Positions 1-5,768 of a stretch of 5,768 bases of DNA are shown here, piece by piece. The position numbers were made by a program, and so were the translations under genes. Numbering within the stretch: the stretch's first letter is position 1; every line of letters begins with the position of its first letter. This stretch comes from a virus, in IMG/VR virus record IMGVR_UViG_3300029495_000075, positions 1-5,768 of that record. One strand, given 5' to 3'. A model generated the notes under the pieces. It was given only the letters and a program-made list of their open reading frames with translations. It did no database searches and was not told the origin of the DNA.

Positions 1-123
1 GGACATGATAGCGGCGGGCATCAATCCAATACTAGCGGCAAACAACGGCGCTACAGCAACACCAAGCGGAGCAAGTGCAAGCATCGGAACACAGCATTAC
101 AACCAGCAGAGCGCACAAGCGGC
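1..123. repeat. Left copy of the direct terminal repeat (identical to 5646..5768); assembly overlap of a circular genome
   Basis: Base-by-base comparison of 1..123 with 5646..5768 shows identity. The repeat lies inside a continuous ORF (VP2). Confidence 0.95.
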
Positions 124-775: not shown

Positions 776-1771
776 ATGCCATGTACAAACCCGAATGTTT
801 TCCAGATGAACACGAAAAAGCCAACCATGTGGGGAAGTCTAAACTACCTAAAGAAACAGGACCTAGAACAAACCATCATGGACGGCGTAAAAAAAGGAAA
901 CCTCGCATTATTGCCATGCGGAAAATGTGAATACTGCCGAAAACAGATGGCAGACCAATGGGCAACGAGAATAGAACTAGAGGCCCAAAAATGGAAAGAT
1001 GTGATTTTCGTTACAATGACCTACGATGAAGAACATGTTCCATACGGCGAAATTCTAAAAGGCTACCAAAGTATTCAATCTCAAACAGTAAGCAAAAGAG
1101 ACGTGCAGCTTTTTCTAAAGCGTCTCAGAAAAGCATACAAGAAACCGATAAAATACTTCATAGCAGGAGAGTACGGAGACAGAACAAAAAGACCACACTA
1201 CCACGGAATTTTTTTTGGACTAAAACCAGAGGATGGAGTATGGTACAAAAACCAAAAGGGCAACGCATACTTTAAGAGCGAATGGCTAACGAACTTATGG
1301 GGAAAAGGATTTGTAGACTTTTCCCCAGCAGCACCAGGCTCATACGCATATGTGGCACAGTACGTGAATAAAAAAGCAATCGGCGCAGAGCAGAGCACAA
1401 AATACTGGATGCAAGGCCGTGAGCCAGAGTTTAGAATCATGTCAAAAGGCATCGGGGAAAAGTACCTAAAAGAGCACATGAACGAAATACTAGAAACCGA
1501 CAACATCACATGCGCAGGAGGGCGGCAGAAAAGGCCACCAAGGTACTTTGATAAGCTACTTGATAAGGATACCAGCAAAGACACTGAAAACTATTTCAAG
1601 GCCCATTCTGACGAGCTGACAGCAGTGAGAGCCAAAAGACGAAGAAACGCAGTGCTAAGCCTTGTAAACTTAGAGCAAAACACCAGTGTTCCATACTCAA
1701 CATACCTAGAAATACAAAAAGAAAAAGACAAGCAAAAACAAAAGTGGAGAGAACCGAAAGAAACCTTATAG
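776..1771 (+). CDS. VP4: VP4 replication initiation protein (HUH rolling-circle endonuclease)
   Basis: The N-terminus MPCTNP.. and the Cys cluster PCGKCEYCR are typical of gokushovirus VP4. Motif 1 is FVTMTY. The HUH motif is PHYHGIFFG (HYH at 1196..1204). The catalytic tyrosine pair YVAQY sits at 1349..1351 and 1361..1363, followed by VNKK. Stop TAG at 1769..1771. Confidence 0.92.
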   Translation: MPCTNPNVFQMNTKKPTMWGSLNYLKKQDLEQTIMDGVKKGNLALLPCGKCEYCRKQMADQWATRIELEAQKWKDVIFVTMTYDEEHVPYGEILKGYQSIQSQTVSKRDVQLFLKRLRKAYKKPIKYFIAGEYGDRTKRPHYHGIFFGLKPEDGVWYKNQKGNAYFKSEWLTNLWGKGFVDFSPAAPGSYAYVAQYVNKKAIGAEQSTKYWMQGREPEFRIMSKGIGEKYLKEHMNEILETDNITCAGGRQKRPPRYFDKLLDKDTSKDTENYFKAHSDELTAVRAKRRRNAVLSLVNLEQNTSVPYSTYLEIQKEKDKQKQKWREPKETL

Positions 1772-1851
1772 CCAATAAAACAGGGAAAGCAGCGGCGGCA
1801 AAGTCTGACGGAGCGCGCCGACAATCTGACCTGCAAGCCGGTCTTGTCAAG

Positions 1852-1887
1852 AGGAGCGCCCGCGGGCGAGAGTTTAAAAGCGCTCCT
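1852..1887 (+). other. GC-rich stem-loop (8-bp stem AGGAGCGC/GCGCTCCT, 20-nt loop) overlapping a 10-bp palindrome GCCCGCGGGC (1858..1867)
   Basis: Read directly. It lies in a locally GC-rich non-coding island downstream of VP4. A second GGAGCGC copy at 1810..1816 can pair alternatively with GCGCTCC at 1880..1886. Confidence 0.45.
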
Positions 1888-1922
1888 ATCCTAGGGAAAA
1901 TGGAAAAAACCTCAAAAAAAGG

Positions 1923-1951
1923 TTGACTTTTTACCAAAAAAATGGTATAAT
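1923..1951 (+). promoter_or_regulatory. Near-consensus sigma70/sigmaA promoter P1: TTGACT, 17-nt spacer, TATAAT, with an extended -10 TG
   Basis: TTGACT at 1923..1928, a 17-nt spacer, TG at 1943..1944 and TATAAT at 1946..1951. It lies in a non-coding region 28 nt upstream of the 59-aa ORF start. Confidence 0.75.
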
Positions 1952-1978: not shown

Positions 1979-2158
1979 ATGAAACAAAAAGAATATAAGT
2001 TCATTGCCCACATCACGCACAAAGACATGACAACAGAAGATAATATGTTCATCGACTACACCGCGAGCGCACGTTGCAGGGCGAGTAAAACAGCACAAAG
2101 ACAAGACGTAGAATCTGTACACCTTTACCGCATTGACAAAACAGAGATTTTTACATAA
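1979..2158 (+). CDS. Hypothetical 59-aa protein (MKQKEYKFIAHITHKDMTTEDNMFIDYTASARCRASKTAQRQDVESVHLYRIDKTEIFT), below the ORF-track cutoff
   Basis: ATG at 1979 is preceded by AGAAAGGA (1960..1967). The ORF is flanked by promoter P1 and a strong intrinsic terminator. Stop TAA at 2156..2158. I recognise no family. Confidence 0.6.
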   Translation: MKQKEYKFIAHITHKDMTTEDNMFIDYTASARCRASKTAQRQDVESVHLYRIDKTEIFT

Positions 2159-2161
2159 AAT
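2133..2161 (+). promoter_or_regulatory. Second near-consensus promoter P2: TTGACA, 17-nt spacer, TAAAAT
   Basis: TTGACA at 2133..2138, a 17-nt spacer (2139..2155) and TAAAAT at 2156..2161. It overlaps the 3' end of the 59-aa ORF. The predicted start near 2168 falls inside the 5' arm of the terminator stem. Confidence 0.5.
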
Positions 2162-2163
2162 AG

Positions 2164-2200
2164 AGGCAGGAAGCCAAAAAGGTTTCCTGCCTTTTATATT
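2164..2200 (+). terminator. Rho-independent terminator after the 59-aa ORF
   Basis: A 12-bp stem (2164..2175 with 2181..2192, one G-U pair), a 5-nt loop AAAAA, then TTTATATTT. Confidence 0.8.
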
Positions 2201-2220: not shown

Positions 2221-2337
2221 ATGGCACATCGTAGCGGCGCAGGCCGTGGCGACCAGCGGAAGTTTACACAAACCGCAAAGCGGACGAAAAACATCAACGT
2301 CCGACCGAAGGTAAGCCGGGGCGGCATCCGGCTGTAA
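2221..2337 (+). CDS. Small basic DNA-binding/packaging protein, 38 aa (gokushovirus ORF8 type; functional analogue of phiX174 J): MAHRSGAGRGDQRKFTQTAKRTKNINVRPKVSRGGIRL
   Basis: An SD AGAAAGGGGG (2205..2214) lies 6 nt before the ATG. The protein has about 11 Arg/Lys in 38 aa. From memory, the C-terminal RGGIRL resembles the ..MRGGIRF end of chlamydiaphage ORF8. Stop TAA at 2335..2337. Confidence 0.72.
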   Translation: MAHRSGAGRGDQRKFTQTAKRTKNINVRPKVSRGGIRL

Positions 2338-2371
2338 TGTTCCAAACGGAACAATGAAAGGAGGTGAACAA

Positions 2372-2479
2372 ATGGACTTTAATGAAAGCATGAACATTTT
2401 TTTGAAAATCCTCGCAATGCTGGATAAAATTTACCACGCAATTGTGAAGGAAGAGGAAGAGACTGAAGAGGAGGAGTAA
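2372..2479 (+). CDS. 35-aa peptide MDFNESMNIFLKILAMLDKIYHAIVKEEEETEEEE: an amphipathic hydrophobic helix plus a poly-acidic tail. Candidate lysis accessory or membrane-active factor.
   Basis: GAAAGGAGGTGA (2357..2368) is a perfect 12-nt anti-SD complement and lies 3 nt before the ATG at 2372. Its TAA (2477..2479) ends 1 nt before the GTG start of the peptidase gene. The peptidase SD is embedded in its Glu codons. Confidence 0.65.
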   Translation: MDFNESMNIFLKILAMLDKIYHAIVKEEEETEEEE

Positions 2480-2480
2480 G

Positions 2481-2876
2481 GTGGAACGTGAAGAATACAG
2501 CTTATTTAATCAGAGCACCCACCAAATAAGTGAACACTTCAAAGTAAGAGAATTTGCACAAAAAGACTTCCGATGTGACAAGGTAATTGTAGACAGAGAA
2601 CTTATAGACGTTTTGGAAGATATACGCGCACATTTCAACAAACCGGTGATTGTAACATCTGGATACCGGACACCAGAATACAACGCAAAAATCGGCGGTG
2701 TAAAAAACTCACAACACACAAAAGGCGCAGCGGCTGATATCCAAGTATCTGATATTCCGGCAAGATGGATACAAAAGTATCTGAAAGACAAATACCCGGA
2801 TAAATACGGCATCGGAAGTTATTTAACTTTTACACACATCGACGTAAGAACTAAAAAAGCACGTTGGAGGGGCTAA
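2481..2876 (+). CDS. Peptidase_M15 (M15_3/YcbK-like, LAS-fold zinc D,D- or L,D-peptidase): putative peptidoglycan hydrolase / endolysin, 131 aa
   Basis: GTG start with GGAGG (2470..2474) 6 nt upstream. Motifs are FKVREF..C, VTSGYRTPEYNAKIGGVKNSQH, KGAAAD and FTHIDVR. They give the H-x6-D...H zinc triad (H79, D86, H119). No N-terminal signal peptide is visible. Confidence 0.85.
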   Translation: MEREEYSLFNQSTHQISEHFKVREFAQKDFRCDKVIVDRELIDVLEDIRAHFNKPVIVTSGYRTPEYNAKIGGVKNSQHTKGAAADIQVSDIPARWIQKYLKDKYPDKYGIGSYLTFTHIDVRTKKARWRG

Positions 2877-2879
2877 AAA

Positions 2880-3134
2880 ATGACACTGAAATTCTACAGT
2901 TTTCATGATGCAATCACGAATGGATACAGCAGTCCTTTCTTACAGCAGAACAGGGCGCAGGCAATCCGCACTGCAAAGTGGAAAGCAAACGAATCAAAAA
3001 TGCAGGAAATCGAGGACATCAGCCTTATGGAGCTGGGCGACTTCGACACCGAAACCGGCGAAATGTTCGGAGCGAAACCAAACCAGCTGTGCAAACTAGT
3101 AGACCTTAAGGAGACGTACAATGTTAAATCCTAA
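2880..3134 (+). CDS. VP5: Conserved gokushovirus non-structural protein (VP5-like), 84 aa
   Basis: GGAGG (2866..2870) lies 9 nt upstream. The pattern ..SSPF....N.AQAIR......EDISLMELGDFDTETGE....P..L matches the small conserved gokushovirus protein as I remember it (PF...A.R.F...P.D..L...G.FD..TG). Confidence 0.6.
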   Translation: MTLKFYSFHDAITNGYSSPFLQQNRAQAIRTAKWKANESKMQEIEDISLMELGDFDTETGEMFGAKPNQLCKLVDLKETYNVKS

Positions 3135-3540
3135 CGTTCTAGTGCGATACTACGGAATACCAACCGAAAGAGTGACAAGCAAAACCGGCAGCGAAACAGC
3201 ACCAACGTGGAAAGCGGTAAAGCGACCAAACGGCACAACGGACTACATCCGACAACCGGATGAAAATGTCTACGAAAAAATTCAAAAGGCAGGCGAAGGA
3301 TACGACCTCGCAAGCGCAATCGCGAGACTAGAAGCCGGAGATTTTTCCATCAAAGCAAAGAGCACAATCTACACAGAGGGCACGCCACTGGAAAATCTGC
3401 CTAAAGACATTGTGACGATGCACGAAACGGCACAGAGGGCGGCGGAAACGCTGGAAGAGCTGAAACAGAAACAGCAGACCGAACAGCCGAAGCCGGAAGA
3501 AAAAAAGGAAGAGGTGAAGCAGAACGAACCGGAACAGTGA
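3121..3540 (+). CDS. VP3: Putative internal scaffolding protein (VP3-like), 139 aa with a charged KQKQQTEQPKPEEKKEEVKQNEPEQ tail
   Basis: AAGGAG (3108..3113) lies 7 nt upstream. It overlaps the previous ORF by 14 nt. Its position immediately upstream of VP1, its size and the segment Y.EGTPLENLPKD......A..A.E.LEEL loosely resemble gokushovirus VP3. The family call is tentative. Confidence 0.5.
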   Translation: MLNPNVLVRYYGIPTERVTSKTGSETAPTWKAVKRPNGTTDYIRQPDENVYEKIQKAGEGYDLASAIARLEAGDFSIKAKSTIYTEGTPLENLPKDIVTMHETAQRAAETLEELKQKQQTEQPKPEEKKEEVKQNEPEQ

Positions 3541-3543
3541 AAA

Positions 3544-3569
3544 CCATTTCGCGCAAGTGCCGCGAATGG
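3544..3569 (+). promoter_or_regulatory. Hairpin enclosing the VP1 initiation region (9 bp with one bulge, 7-nt loop CAAGTGC)
   Basis: CCATT(T)CGCG (3544..3553) pairs with CGCGAATGG (3561..3569). The GTG at 3557 is in the loop and the ATG at 3566 is in the 3' arm. There is no adjacent SD. Confidence 0.35.
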
Positions 3570-5218
3570 AAAGACCGCGATCAAAATTTGACCGCAGCCA
3601 TCAGCTCTTAACGACCATCAACGAAGGCGAACTGGTACCCATCTACATGGACGAAGTGCTACCAGGTGACACAGCACGGGTACAACTTAACGGGCTTATC
3701 AGAATGAGCACTCCTATCTATCCTATCATGGATAACTGTTACATGGATATATATTTCTTCTTTGTGCCTGCAAGACTTTTGTGGTATCACTTTGAAAATA
3801 TGTTCGGTGAAAATGAAACCGACTACTGGGCAGAAGATACGGAGTATTCAACTCCTAAATGCACCATCGGCGGCACCAGCGGCCTTGCAAATGGTTCCAT
3901 CGGCGACTATTTCGGACTGCCGACACAGGTAACGAACGCGCTGGAAGTGAACGCATTACCTGCACGAGCATACTGCAAAATATACAACGAGTGGTTCAGA
4001 GATGAAAATCTTGAAGCGCCGCTTATGGTGGGATACAAAAAGACGGATGACGGCGCAACAAATGCAGACGCAAGCAAAGTAACCGAAAATGCAAACGCTC
4101 TCGACCAGACGACCAACACCAGCGAAGCAACGTTGTATGCAATGAAACCAGCAAAGGTGAGCAAGTTCCACGATTATTTCACATCTTGCCTTCCTTCACC
4201 GTTGAAAAATGCAGAGCCGGTAACGCTGCCAATAACAGGAGCAGCGGGAATATATGCTTACTCAGACAAAGAACTAAAAAATAAAACAGAACAAAACATA
4301 AACAGCTTTACAAGTCAAACAGACGCCGGAGGAACACAAAAACAAAGACTTTACGACATGATCCTATGGGAAGGAACCCCGGCACAAACATATGTAGGAA
4401 ACGGAACGGAAAAAGAACTAAGCTATCTCGGAGCAGACCTTAGCAGTGTAACCGCAACAACGATTAACGACTTACGGCAGGCCATCGCACTGCAACATAT
4501 CTTCGAAGCAGATGCAAGAAACGGCACGAGGTACAGAGAATTCCTTTCCGGGACGTGGGGCATAACAAGTCCGGACAGCCGGCTGCAAATTCCAGAGTAC
4601 ATTGGCGGGCAGCGAATTGCAATCAATGTGAATCAGGTGGTGCAGACCAGCCAAACAGACACCACGACCGGGCAAGCACTGGGCAACACAGCGGCATACA
4701 GCCTAACGACCTGTTCAAAACAGATGGTAGACTATGCAGCAACAGAGTACGGCTATATCATCGGGCTGGCAGTGGTACGAGTGGAACACAGCTACCAGCA
4801 GGGCCTTGGAACCAAATGGACGCGCGGCGGCCGATTCACGTACTACGACCCGCGATTAGCGGCACTGGGCGAACAGCCAGTATACAACAGAGAAATCTAC
4901 GCAGACGGAAGCGAAAAAGATAGCCAGATTTTTGGCTATCAGGAAGCTTGGGCGGATTACCGCTACAAGCCTTCCTACGTAACCGGAGAAATGAGGTCAA
5001 ACTATCAAACGTCTTTGGATGCATGGCACTATGCAGACGACTATGACAAGCTGCCGACACTATCGGCAGAGTGGATTCAGGAAGGACGTGAAAACATCGA
5101 TAGGACTATTGCGGTAACGTCCGCAGTAAGTCACCAATTCTTGTGTGATTTCTGGTTCAATGAAACGTGGTACAGGGAAATGCCAATCTACAGTATCCCG
5201 GGCATCGAAAGAATCTAA
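3557..5218 (+). CDS. VP1: VP1 major capsid protein (Microviridae F-protein family). The start is GTG 3557 or, perhaps more likely, the in-frame ATG 3566.
   Basis: Hallmark gokushovirus motifs: SKFDRSH, LVPIYMDEVLPGDT, YFFFVPARLLW, HDYFTSCLP, TINDLRQAIALQ..E.DARNGTRY.E, RLQIPEYIGG. Stop TAA at 5216..5218. Confidence 0.95.
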   Translation: MPRMERPRSKFDRSHQLLTTINEGELVPIYMDEVLPGDTARVQLNGLIRMSTPIYPIMDNCYMDIYFFFVPARLLWYHFENMFGENETDYWAEDTEYSTPKCTIGGTSGLANGSIGDYFGLPTQVTNALEVNALPARAYCKIYNEWFRDENLEAPLMVGYKKTDDGATNADASKVTENANALDQTTNTSEATLYAMKPAKVSKFHDYFTSCLPSPLKNAEPVTLPITGAAGIYAYSDKELKNKTEQNINSFTSQTDAGGTQKQRLYDMILWEGTPAQTYVGNGTEKELSYLGADLSSVTATTINDLRQAIALQHIFEADARNGTRYREFLSGTWGITSPDSRLQIPEYIGGQRIAINVNQVVQTSQTDTTTGQALGNTAAYSLTTCSKQMVDYAATEYGYIIGLAVVRVEHSYQQGLGTKWTRGGRFTYYDPRLAALGEQPVYNREIYADGSEKDSQIFGYQEAWADYRYKPSYVTGEMRSNYQTSLDAWHYADDYDKLPTLSAEWIQEGRENIDRTIAVTSAVSHQFLCDFWFNETWYREMPIYSIPGIERI

Positions 5219-5256: not shown

Positions 5257-5768
5257 ATGGGTACACTTTTATCATGGATGCCGTACATCATGCAGGGACT
5301 TAGCCTACTGACAAGCGTTGCAATGAGTTCAAACCAGAGCAGTGCAACAAGCAGCCAAAGAGCCGGAGAAGAAACAAGCAGCGGAAGCGAAACAACCACC
5401 GGAAGCCTGACAGCACCGCAACAAATCGGCTCAACACAGATTGGAACACCAACAGGCATCACCACATACAACAATCAGGGCAGCGTAAACATGGCAAACG
5501 GCATGAGCTTTTTAAGCTCTATTATCAGTAATCTGATGAACGCAGGAAGCCAAGCAAGCGCAAAAAAATACAACTCCGCAGAAGCGGCGGCAGAAAGAGC
5601 CTTTGCAAAGGAAATGCGCGGCACAGCATATCAGGACACTGTAAAGGACATGATAGCGGCGGGCATCAATCCAATACTAGCGGCAAACAACGGCGCTACA
5701 GCAACACCAAGCGGAGCAAGTGCAAGCATCGGAACACAGCATTACAACCAGCAGAGCGCACAAGCGGC
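5257..5768 (+). CDS. VP2: VP2 minor capsid / DNA pilot protein, N-terminal part. It runs off the window and continues at position 124 of the circle.
   Basis: The frame is open from ATG 5257, directly after an in-frame TAA at 5254..5256, to the window end, and matches 1..502. Alternative in-frame ATGs are at 5278, 5290 and 5323. The N-terminal region is Ser/Thr/Gly/Gln-rich. Confidence 0.78.
   Translation, partial: MGTLLSWMPYIMQGLSLLTSVAMSSNQSSATSSQRAGEETSSGSETTTGSLTAPQQIGSTQIGTPTGITTYNNQGSVNMANGMSFLSSIISNLMNAGSQASAKKYNSAEAAAERAFAKEMRGTAYQDTVKDMIAAGINPILAANNGATATPSGASASIGTQHYNQQSAQA
5646..5768. repeat. Right copy of the direct terminal repeat (identical to 1..123)
   Basis: Same comparison; offset 5645. 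Confidence 0.95.

What the first reader, a model, noticed from the sequence alone, without database searches (positions are those of the whole stretch)
2357..2876. Lysis-cassette-like pair in a microvirus: 35-aa amphipathic/acidic peptide abutted to a Peptidase_M15 cell-wall hydrolase
Established background: characterised microviruses lyse without a muralytic enzyme. phiX174 uses protein E, which inhibits MraY, and no lysis gene has been assigned for gokushoviruses. Seen in sequence: a 131-aa ORF carries the full LAS/M15 zinc signature (SGYR...N..GG..SQH..GAAAD, then THID) and has no signal peptide, so it would need help to reach the wall. Directly upstream sits an unannotated 35-aa ORF with the best RBS in the genome (GAAAGGAGGTGA). 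It has a 19-residue helix (MNIFLKILAMLDKIYHAIV) whose few polar residues (N8, K12, K19, H22) fall on one face, followed by EEEETEEEE. Its stop lies 1 nt before the hydrolase GTG, and the hydrolase SD is written inside its Glu codons, which suggests coupled expression. Inference: this is a two-component, holin/endolysin-style or membrane-disruptor/endolysin-style module carried by a 5.6-kb ssDNA phage. From memory, M15-like ORFs have been noted sporadically in metagenomic microviruses but not characterised; I cannot verify that here. An alternative role for the peptide is that its acidic tail chaperones the very basic ORF8-like protein encoded just upstream.
Basis: partly seen in the sequence, partly recalled or inferred. 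Interest (0 to 1): 0.82.

Follow-up and report, generated by a model that had tools for sequence, protein, structure and literature searches.

The report
Known microvirus peptidase beside unrelated small gene
This gut gokushovirus carries a borrowed cell-wall peptidase of a type reported in such phages in 2012, and the small gene next to it is a real, widespread, unannotated gokushovirus gene that also occurs without the peptidase, so the two are not a dedicated lysis pair.

Summary
A 35-aa ORF (2372..2479) has the strongest Shine-Dalgarno site in the genome. One nucleotide after its stop begins a 131-aa Peptidase_M15_3 gene (2481..2876) with intact zinc ligands and a confident LAS fold.

The interpretation as a holin/endolysin-like pair does not hold.
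- M15_3 peptidases in human-gut gokushoviruses were reported and proposed as endolysins by Roux et al. 2012. A 93%-identical genome is in GenBank.
- The small ORF belongs to a large unannotated family (1391 clusters at 90% identity). It is under purifying selection (pN/pS 0.12-0.17).
- It is a single amphipathic heptad-repeat helix with no transmembrane segment. Net charge across the family runs from -8 to +2.
- Its position follows the ORF8 neighbourhood, not the peptidase. In about 40 relatives the peptidase lies upstream of ORF8. At least 19 complete genomes have the small ORF and no peptidase.
- Its last Glu/Lys codons form the Shine-Dalgarno site of whichever gene follows, so the apparent coupling is generic.

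The peptidase is probably a lysis enzyme. How it reaches the wall, and what the small protein does, remain open. Peptidase-less relatives instead carry a 30-38-aa transmembrane ORF after ORF8.

The parts
2221..2337 (+). ORF8/VP8-like basic protein (38 aa), the conserved left-hand neighbour of the small ORF
   Evidence: PHROG 10695 hit at 2.7e-6. It is 84-100% identical in the relatives found through VP5, and the small ORF follows it in both peptidase architectures. That ORF8/VP8 is the J-like DNA-binding protein of gokushoviruses is established knowledge (PMC7062461).
2356..2367 (+). Shine-Dalgarno site of the small ORF (GAAAGGAGGTGA)
   Evidence: Best anti-SD duplex in the window, -15.9 kcal/mol. 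The motif GAAAG(G)AGGTGA is kept even in distant relatives.
2372..2479 (+). Small ORF, 35 aa plus stop. It belongs to an unannotated gokushovirus family of single-helix heptad-repeat proteins.
   Evidence: Family size is 1391 clusters at 90% identity and 55 representatives at 50%. pN/pS is 0.17 and 0.12 in frame against 1.0-2.3 out of frame. AF2 predicts a helix over residues 3-34, pLDDT 86. There is no PHROG or Pfam hit.
2405..2440 (+). Conserved core of the small protein, K-I-L-A-M-L-D-K-I-Y-H-A (residues 12-23)
   Evidence: I13, D18, I20, Y21, H22 and A23 are invariant in 54 family members and L14 is nearly so. Nucleotide variation in the core falls mainly on third codon positions (12 of 12 third positions vary, against 4 and 3 of 12 first and second positions). 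This argues for protein-level rather than DNA-level constraint.
2468..2476 (+). Shine-Dalgarno site of the peptidase (GAGGAGGAG), written in the last Glu codons of the small ORF
   Evidence: Second-best anti-SD duplex in the window, -12.0 kcal/mol. The same dual-coding arrangement precedes VP5, ORF8 or a 75-aa ORF in relatives.
2481..2876 (+). Peptidase_M15_3 (LAS zinc metallopeptidase), 131 aa, GTG start, no signal peptide
   Evidence: Pfam PF08291 at 1.7e-26 and PHROG 894 endolysin at 3e-44. AF2 pLDDT 95. Foldseek top hit is 1LBU, with VanY, Ply500, T5 endolysin and ChiX also listed. It is 52-55% identical to annotated endolysins of K1E/SP6-like phages. Relatives use ATG at the same position.
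2715..2738 (+). H79...D86 (SQHTKGAAAD), first two zinc ligands
   Evidence: Aligned to the matching His and Asp of 1LBU. Both are invariant in 32 homologues.
2835..2843 (+). H119-I-D121 (THID), third zinc ligand and catalytic Asp region
   Evidence: H119 is at least 90% conserved and D121 is invariant.
2880..3134 (+). VP5 (Phage_ORF5), right-hand boundary of the peptidase insertion
   Evidence: Pfam PF20577 at 1.9e-13. In architecture B the small ORF abuts VP5 directly, with no peptidase between them.

Best explanation
Two independent things lie side by side.

(1) The 131-aa gene is a horizontally acquired LAS/M15_3 cell-wall peptidase of the kind tailed phages use as an endolysin. In this clade it was inserted between the small ORF and VP5. 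It most likely contributes to host lysis (inferred).

(2) The 35-aa gene is a lineage-wide gokushovirus gene that goes with the ORF8-side block. It encodes a soluble single alpha-helix with a continuous heptad hydrophobic seam and an invariant L-D-x-I-Y-H-A motif. It most likely acts by helix-helix binding, either to itself or to a viral or host partner, in the cytoplasm (inferred). It is not a membrane-hole former dedicated to the peptidase.

Its C-terminal Glu/Lys codons (GAGGAG or AAGGAG) double as the ribosome-binding site of whatever gene lies downstream. That explains both the acidic end and the apparent translational coupling. How the signal-less peptidase reaches the wall is unresolved, because no TM protein is encoded on the + strand of this genome.
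For: Peptidase identity:
- Its closest non-microvirus relatives are annotated endolysins of K1E/SP6-like phages, at 52-55% identity.
- Related proteins on tailed-phage contigs are flanked by TM or lipobox proteins.

Independent acquisition:
- The window-type peptidase is only 40-44% identical to the type found upstream of ORF8 in relatives, although ORF8 in those relatives is 84-100% identical.
- Roux 2012 (PMC3394797) inferred at least two horizontal transfers.

Small ORF is real:
- It is intact in every relative fetched through VP5 whose region is complete.
- pN/pS is 0.17 and 0.12, against 0.28-0.30 for the peptidase.
- Variation in the core falls mainly on third codon positions.

Independence from the peptidase:
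- Four gene orders exist.
- An M15 HMM finds nothing in 24 loci that carry the small ORF, at least 14 of them complete contigs.
- It also finds nothing in KT264790, KT264788, PV067914, KX513873 and MG945138.
- The small-ORF family gave 1391 clusters and the peptidase search 266, but the two searches used different thresholds.

Not a membrane protein:
- Hydropathy is below TM range.
- AF2 gives a single helix.
- Heptad a/d positions are all hydrophobic over about four heptads in five divergent members, and net charge runs from -8 to +2.

Generic SD at the 3' end.

Weak support for a lysis role of the peptidase: a 30-38-aa TM ORF directly after ORF8 occurs in 16 of 32 peptidase-less loci and in 0 of 71 peptidase-bearing loci.
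Against: - All genomes of the window's own clade and its sister clade carry both genes. Within these clades co-occurrence cannot be broken, and a secondary functional link is not excluded.
- The peptidase has no export signal and no TM partner is encoded. Something must give it access to the wall, and the amphipathic peptide is the only uncharacterised product nearby.
- No experiment exists for either protein.
- The proposed protein-binding role of the helix rests only on sequence pattern and gene neighbourhood.
- The loci are phylogenetically non-independent, so the counts overstate the number of independent events.
Confidence: 0.7

Rival explanations
1. The 35-aa amphipathic peptide permeabilises the cytoplasmic membrane as a holin substitute and releases the cytoplasmic M15 peptidase. 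The two are translationally coupled as a two-component lysis module.
For: - The two genes abut with one nucleotide between them, and the genome's two strongest SD sites precede them.
- The peptidase lacks a signal peptide and no TM ORF exists on the + strand.
- The peptide is amphipathic, with muH 0.52.
- Both genes are present in all of the roughly 70 genomes of the two closest clades.
Against: - There is no TM segment, and charged residues sit inside the helix.
- The peptide is strongly anionic here (-8), unlike known membrane-disrupting phage peptides, and its charge is not conserved.
- Adjacency is lost in about 40 relatives.
- The family is present in at least 19 complete genomes that lack any M15.
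- The SD-in-tail arrangement is generic.
- A relative with a genuine TM ORF overlapping its peptidase start (L082 2775..2942) still also carries the small ORF as a separate gene.
Confidence: 0.1
2. The small acidic protein chaperones or neutralises the very basic ORF8/VP8 DNA-binding protein until packaging.
For: - The small ORF is always within zero or one gene of ORF8, on either side.
- In the window it carries net charge -8. By my count from the sequence, ORF8 carries about +10.
Against: - The acidic character is not a family trait. Net charge is -1, +1, +2 and 0 in other subfamilies.
- The invariant part is the hydrophobic helix core, not the tail.
- The terminal Glu/Lys codons are explained by the downstream SD.
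- In a 5.6-kb genome every gene is near every other gene.
Confidence: 0.12
3. The peptidase never leaves the cytoplasm. Like VanX/VanY-type M15 enzymes, it would cleave cytoplasmic peptidoglycan precursors (UDP-MurNAc-peptide or lipid II on the inner face). Lysis would then follow from blocked wall synthesis, as with phiX174 E, and no holin would be needed.
For: - There is no signal peptide and no TM partner is encoded.
- The LAS fold is shared with VanY.
- It fits the established microvirus and levivirus habit of lysing by blocking wall synthesis (general knowledge; PMC3394797 summarises E).
Against: - The nearest characterised-type relatives are endolysins that sit in canonical cassettes with membrane proteins.
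- From general knowledge, cytoplasmic accumulation of such endolysins in tailed phages is harmless until the holin fires.
- There is no direct evidence.
Confidence: 0.06

Closest known systems
M15_3 peptidases of human-gut Gokushovirinae and Alpavirinae (Roux et al. 2012, PMC3394797); GenBank KX513864.1 'peptidase M15'; KT264784.1
   Same: - Same Pfam family and the same type of virus and habitat.
- KT264784.1 is 93% identical in nucleotides over 93% of the window, and its unannotated peptidase is 92% identical in protein.
- Roux already proposed horizontal acquisition and an endolysin role. They also noted unknown ORFs next to some of these peptidase genes, and one gokushovirus peptidase whose closest relative was in Providencia.
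   Different: Nothing essential differs for the peptidase. New here is the mapping of two insertion sites either side of the ORF8-small-ORF block.
Endolysins of K1E/SP6-like coliphages (e.g. K1E gp43) and other PHROG 894 endolysins
   Same: 52-55% identity over about 88% of the length, with the same single-domain architecture of about 115-130 aa.
   Different: Related peptidases on the two tailed-phage contigs examined (L113, L114) sit among membrane-protein genes: a lipobox ORF and single- or multi-TMD proteins. The window encodes no TM protein.
Holin-endolysin cassettes
   Same: A small gene abuts a muralytic gene, with close translational spacing.
   Different: The small protein has no TMD, is anionic, and is conserved without the enzyme.
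phiX174 protein E and other single-gene lysis proteins
   Same: A small protein of a microvirus with no assigned function, in a subfamily where no lysis gene is known (PMC7062461).
   Different: From general knowledge, E works through an N-terminal TMD that binds MraY. The small ORF has none. The better E-like candidates are the 30-38-aa TM ORFs after ORF8 in peptidase-less relatives.
Ebor Gp7 (Tainavirinae microvirus peptidoglycan hydrolase, PMC11980548)
   Same: An accessory muralytic enzyme in a microvirus. That genome also encodes a 45-aa predicted membrane protein.
   Different: It comes from a different microvirus lineage. Sequence relatedness to the window's peptidase was not tested. 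Its activity was verified on a zymogram, and nothing has been verified here.

Membership tests
Peptidase_M15_3 / LAS zinc metallopeptidases (clan MD) | Significant match to the family profile above the curated threshold | tested here: met
   PF08291 at 92.9 bits against a cut-off of 23.2, E=1.7e-26, covering 107 of 108 profile positions.
Peptidase_M15_3 / LAS zinc metallopeptidases (clan MD) | Zinc ligands H-x6-D plus a downstream H (with the conserved Asp of the H-x-D motif) | tested here: met
   H79 and D86 align with the matching His and Asp of 1LBU. H79, D86 and D121 are invariant and H119 is at least 90% conserved in 32 homologues.
Peptidase_M15_3 / LAS zinc metallopeptidases (clan MD) | LAS fold | tested here: met
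   AF2 mean pLDDT is 95. The best Foldseek PDB hit is 1LBU (E=7.8e-4, rmsd 2.4 A over 90 columns). Hedgehog-N, VanY, Ply500, T5 endolysin and ChiX are also in the list.
Peptidase_M15_3 / LAS zinc metallopeptidases (clan MD) | Peptidoglycan-peptide hydrolysis | not testable with these tools
   Needs a zymogram or muropeptide analysis.
Holin-endolysin two-component lysis cassette | The small partner is an integral membrane protein with at least one TMD | tested here: not met
   Maximum KD over 17 aa is 1.54, with K12, D18 and K19 inside the stretch. Homologues give 1.02 and 0.64. AF2 predicts one amphipathic helix.
Holin-endolysin two-component lysis cassette | The two genes are inherited and positioned as a unit | tested here: not met
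   Four gene orders are seen. The small ORF occurs in at least 19 complete genomes without M15.
Holin-endolysin two-component lysis cassette | Lysis requires both products | not testable with these tools
   Needs an expression experiment.
Cationic amphipathic membrane-disrupting phage peptides | Net positive charge on an amphipathic helix | tested here: not met
   Net charge is -8 in the window and -1 to +2 in other subfamilies. muH is 0.52-0.71.
Protein E-type single-gene lysis protein | N-terminal TMD | tested here: not met
   No TM stretch in the small ORF or in any + strand ORF of the window.
Unnamed gokushovirus small-helix family (defined here) | A 30-45-aa protein with the core [KRQ]-[KNRQ]-I-L-x-x-[LV]-D-[KE]-I-Y-H-A, lying next to or one gene from ORF8 | tested here: met
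   The window sequence matches the core. The family was defined from 100+ loci and 1391 protein clusters.

The most novel reading that the evidence does not exclude
The conserved 35-aa helix could be a lineage-wide, non-transmembrane effector of the still unknown gokushovirus lysis pathway. It might bind and disable a conserved host envelope or cell-wall-synthesis protein, or open the membrane as an oligomeric helix bundle. Accessory modules would then plug into this pathway: the M15 peptidase here, and a 30-38-aa TM peptide in relatives. Its unusually strong conservation could fit a conserved host target. The core stays about 70% identical in genomes whose VP4 is only about 33% identical to the window's.
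Probability: 0.07. Interest if true: 0.8.

Novelty: already known. Interest (0 to 1): 0.3.

Why it matters
The peptidase adds nothing new. M15_3 genes in gut gokushoviruses, and the idea that they serve as endolysins, have been in the literature since 2012.

Three by-products are worth keeping.
- A very common, strongly conserved, never-annotated small protein family exists in human, pig and monkey gut gokushoviruses.
- Two peptidase lineages were inserted at two sites either side of the ORF8-small-ORF block.
- In this sample the peptidase and a tiny TM ORF after ORF8 never occur together. This gives concrete candidates for the unassigned gokushovirus lysis function.

Tried and rejected
- DNA-level constraint. 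I asked whether conservation of the small-ORF core reflects an origin, packaging signal or promoter. I rejected this because variation falls mainly on third codon positions while the amino acids stay fixed. The promoter-like match inside the ORF (2402..2430) is altered by synonymous changes in most relatives.
- Known family for the small ORF. Pfam gave nothing and PHROGs gave only E of 0.03 or worse. Motif strings gave no literature hit.
- Rosetta-stone fusions. Longer database proteins that contain the motif are upstream read-through calls or assembly artefacts.
- Any TM ORF in the window that could act as a holin. None was found on the + strand.
- Rfam scan of the window. No match.
- A first homologous-protein run failed because the 35-aa query was too short. 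I re-ran it with a 44-aa member placed first.
- The pN/pS for the 12-codon core is circular, because the sequences were picked by the motif. I rely instead on the full-length estimate from the set found through VP5.

Full report
**What the window is.** It is a complete gokushovirus genome of 5645 nt with a 123-nt terminal redundancy. All genes lie on the + strand: VP2, VP4 (776..1771), a 59-aa ORF (1979..2158), ORF8-like (2221..2337), the small ORF (2372..2479), an M15_3 peptidase (2481..2876), VP5 (2880..3134), VP3 (3121..3540) and VP1 (3557..5218). The closest GenBank record is Gokushovirus WZ-2015a, KT264784.1, from human faeces. It is 93% identical over 93% of the window, and ORF8, the small ORF, the peptidase and VP3 are not annotated in it.

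**Observation check.** Every sequence statement in the finding is correct.
- The 35-aa ORF starts at ATG 2372, behind GAAAGGAGGTGA. That site is the strongest anti-SD match in the genome, at -15.9 kcal/mol. The second strongest, at -12.0, is the GAGGAGGAG in the peptide's last Glu codons, ahead of the peptidase GTG at 2481. One base separates the stop from that GTG.
- The 131-aa protein matches PF08291 at E=1.7e-26 and PHROG 894 'endolysin' at 3e-44.
- H79 and D86 align with the matching His and Asp of 1LBU. H79, D86 and D121 are invariant and H119 is nearly so in 32 homologues.
- AlphaFold2 gives pLDDT 95. Foldseek then recovers LAS enzymes: 1LBU, VanY, Ply500, T5 endolysin and ChiX.

**The peptidase is already known.** Roux et al. 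2012 (PMC3394797) reported M15_3 peptidases in five human-gut gokushoviruses and six alpaviruses. They inferred at least two horizontal acquisitions and proposed an endolysin role. They also remarked on unknown ORFs next to some of these genes, and one gokushovirus peptidase had its closest relative in Providencia. Later work repeats the point (PMC7062461 and PMC9239249; PMC11499846). A microvirus peptidoglycan hydrolase, Ebor Gp7, has been verified biochemically (PMC11980548). GenBank KX513864.1 annotates the homologue as 'peptidase M15'. In the protein database more than 100 clusters at 65% identity or more sit mostly on 5.4-5.9-kb contigs. Identity then drops to about 55% for proteins on longer contigs. 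The best phage-record matches outside microviruses are annotated endolysins of K1E/SP6-like phages, at 52-55%.

**The small ORF is a real gene.**
- I fetched 60 relatives through VP5, which does not bias towards the small ORF. Every locus with the region intact has the ORF open, with a start codon behind the same SD.
- Full-length pN/pS is 0.17 for the window type (20 unique sequences) and 0.12 for the sister type (38 unique). The two off-frames give 1.0-2.3. For comparison, ORF8 is 0.15, the peptidase 0.28-0.30 and VP5 0.25.
- In the core K-I-L-A-M-L-D-K-I-Y-H-A, nucleotide variation falls mainly on third codon positions. The constraint is therefore on the protein, not on a DNA element.
- A profile search finds 1391 clusters at 90% identity and 55 representatives at 50%. 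All are short 'hypothetical' proteins, mostly on contigs of about 5.5 kb. None of the 25 GenBank records with a match annotates it.

**What kind of protein it is.** AF2 predicts one helix over residues 3-34, confident through the core and weaker in the tail. In five divergent subfamilies the heptad a/d positions are hydrophobic without interruption for about four heptads, for example F-M-F-L-L-Y-I in the window. Hydropathy is below TM range. The 17-aa maximum is 1.54 here, with K12, D18 and K19 inside the stretch, and 1.02 and 0.64 in homologues. Net charge runs from -8 in the window to +2, so the poly-Glu tail is a clade feature and not a family feature.

**It is not tied to the peptidase.** Four gene orders occur.
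- A: ORF8 -> small -> peptidase -> VP5. This is the window clade.
- B: peptidase -> ORF8 -> small -> VP5. This occurs in about 40 loci, and their peptidase is only 40-46% identical to the window's.
- C: peptidase -> small -> ORF8 in L099, and peptidase -> small -> 87-aa ORF -> ORF8 in L082.
- D: small ORF with no peptidase at all.

An HMM built from five microvirus peptidases finds nothing in 24 loci that carry the small ORF, at least 14 of them complete contigs. It also finds nothing, even at E up to 10, in the complete GenBank genomes KT264790.1, KT264788.1, PV067914.1, KX513873.1 and MG945138.1. The small ORF stays next to ORF8 or one gene away, while the peptidase has been dropped in on either side of that block. 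That pattern fits separate acquisitions. The A-type enzyme is closer to tailed-phage endolysins (52-55%) than to the B type (40-44%).

**The 'coupling' is generic.** In nearly every member examined, the last two or three codons of the small ORF are GAG GAG, AAG GAG or similar. The next start codon follows 1-11 nt after the TAA, whichever gene comes next: peptidase, VP5, ORF8 or a 75-aa ORF. The terminal Glu/Lys residues are therefore at least partly the translation of the downstream SD.

**How the peptidase could work.** In the two tailed-phage contigs I examined, related peptidases sit among membrane-protein genes. These include a lipobox ORF and a TMD protein overlapping its stop in L113, and XkdX plus single- and multi-TMD proteins in L114. 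The window encodes no TM ORF on the + strand, so the route to the wall is unknown. One relative, L082, has a 55-aa TM ORF overlapping the peptidase start. It shows what a true pair looks like, and it still keeps the small ORF as a separate gene. Peptidase-less relatives often carry a 30-38-aa TM ORF whose GTG overlaps the ORF8 stop. This is seen in 16 of 32 peptidase-less loci and in 0 of 71 peptidase-bearing loci. That mutual exclusion is weak, phylogenetically non-independent support for the idea that both are lysis accessories.

**Verdict.** The 'lysis-cassette pair' is not supported. The small ORF is an uncharacterised, widespread gokushovirus helix protein whose function I cannot determine. 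My best guess is a cytoplasmic helix-helix interaction role in the ORF8/VP5 (packaging) neighbourhood. Residual probabilities are about 0.1 each for the membrane-disruptor and ORF8-chaperone readings.

Noticed in passing
L083 3824..3922; L090 3770..3868; L109 (KT264788.1) 4756..4872; L111 (KX513873.1) 1841..1933; L106 5366..5482: Peptidase-less relatives carry a 30-38-aa ORF with one TMD and, in most, a conserved IDI[IV]K-x-W motif (e.g. MSAVYAGVTMACLAAGFVFIIFSIDIIKNWFK). Its GTG start overlaps the ORF8 stop. It is present in 16 of 32 peptidase-less loci and 0 of 71 peptidase-bearing loci. It is a candidate E-like or holin-like lysis gene for gokushoviruses.
   Followed up: partly
L082 2775..2942: A 55-aa ORF with a strong TMD (MQSRKEVKNMETLAAVGIIIAIIGMTAATASLIILMVQMVKDMKGESKKWKSNHM) overlaps the start of that genome's M15 peptidase. 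It looks like a genuine holin-like plus peptidase pair in a gokushovirus, and it is separate from the small ORF that follows at 3317..3430.
   Followed up: partly
L083 3382..3492 and 13 similar loci (L084-L092, L098, L101, L102): In this subfamily the small ORF has no ATG, GTG or TTG start upstream of its conserved N-terminal residues. The frame opens right after the TGA of the SD (GAAAGAGGTGA), and a conserved CTG lies 6 nt downstream. This suggests a CTG start codon.
   Followed up: partly
window 2162..2194 (with promoter-like sites 1923..1951 and 2133..2161): A 14-bp GC-rich hairpin followed by a T-run lies just upstream of ORF8. It folds at -12.7 kcal/mol as ssDNA, z=-4.0 against shuffles. 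Two 11-of-12 sigma-70-like promoter matches precede it. It could be a terminator, a complementary-strand origin or a packaging hairpin.
   Followed up: partly
window 1..123 and 5646..5768: The window has an exact 123-nt terminal redundancy. The genome unit is 5645 nt, as expected for a circular assembly.
   Followed up: yes
window 1979..2158: A 59-aa ORF between VP4 and ORF8 has no Pfam or PHROG hit. It is 95-97% identical in a few close relatives (L016, L070, L071) and partly recognisable in architecture-B genomes just upstream of their peptidase.
   Followed up: no
L083 3494..3724; L105 796..1023; L082 3436..3699: A conserved 75-87-aa ORF (consensus ...WNVRDQTD.NLM.ELT..YK.ID.AY...) sits between the small ORF and ORF8 in the more distant subfamilies. 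Its function is unknown.
   Followed up: no
L001 (KT264784.1) 4201..4317, 4352..4459, 4461..4856: The closest GenBank genome annotates only VP1, VP2, VP4 and VP5. ORF8, the small ORF, the peptidase and VP3 are all unannotated there.
   Followed up: yes
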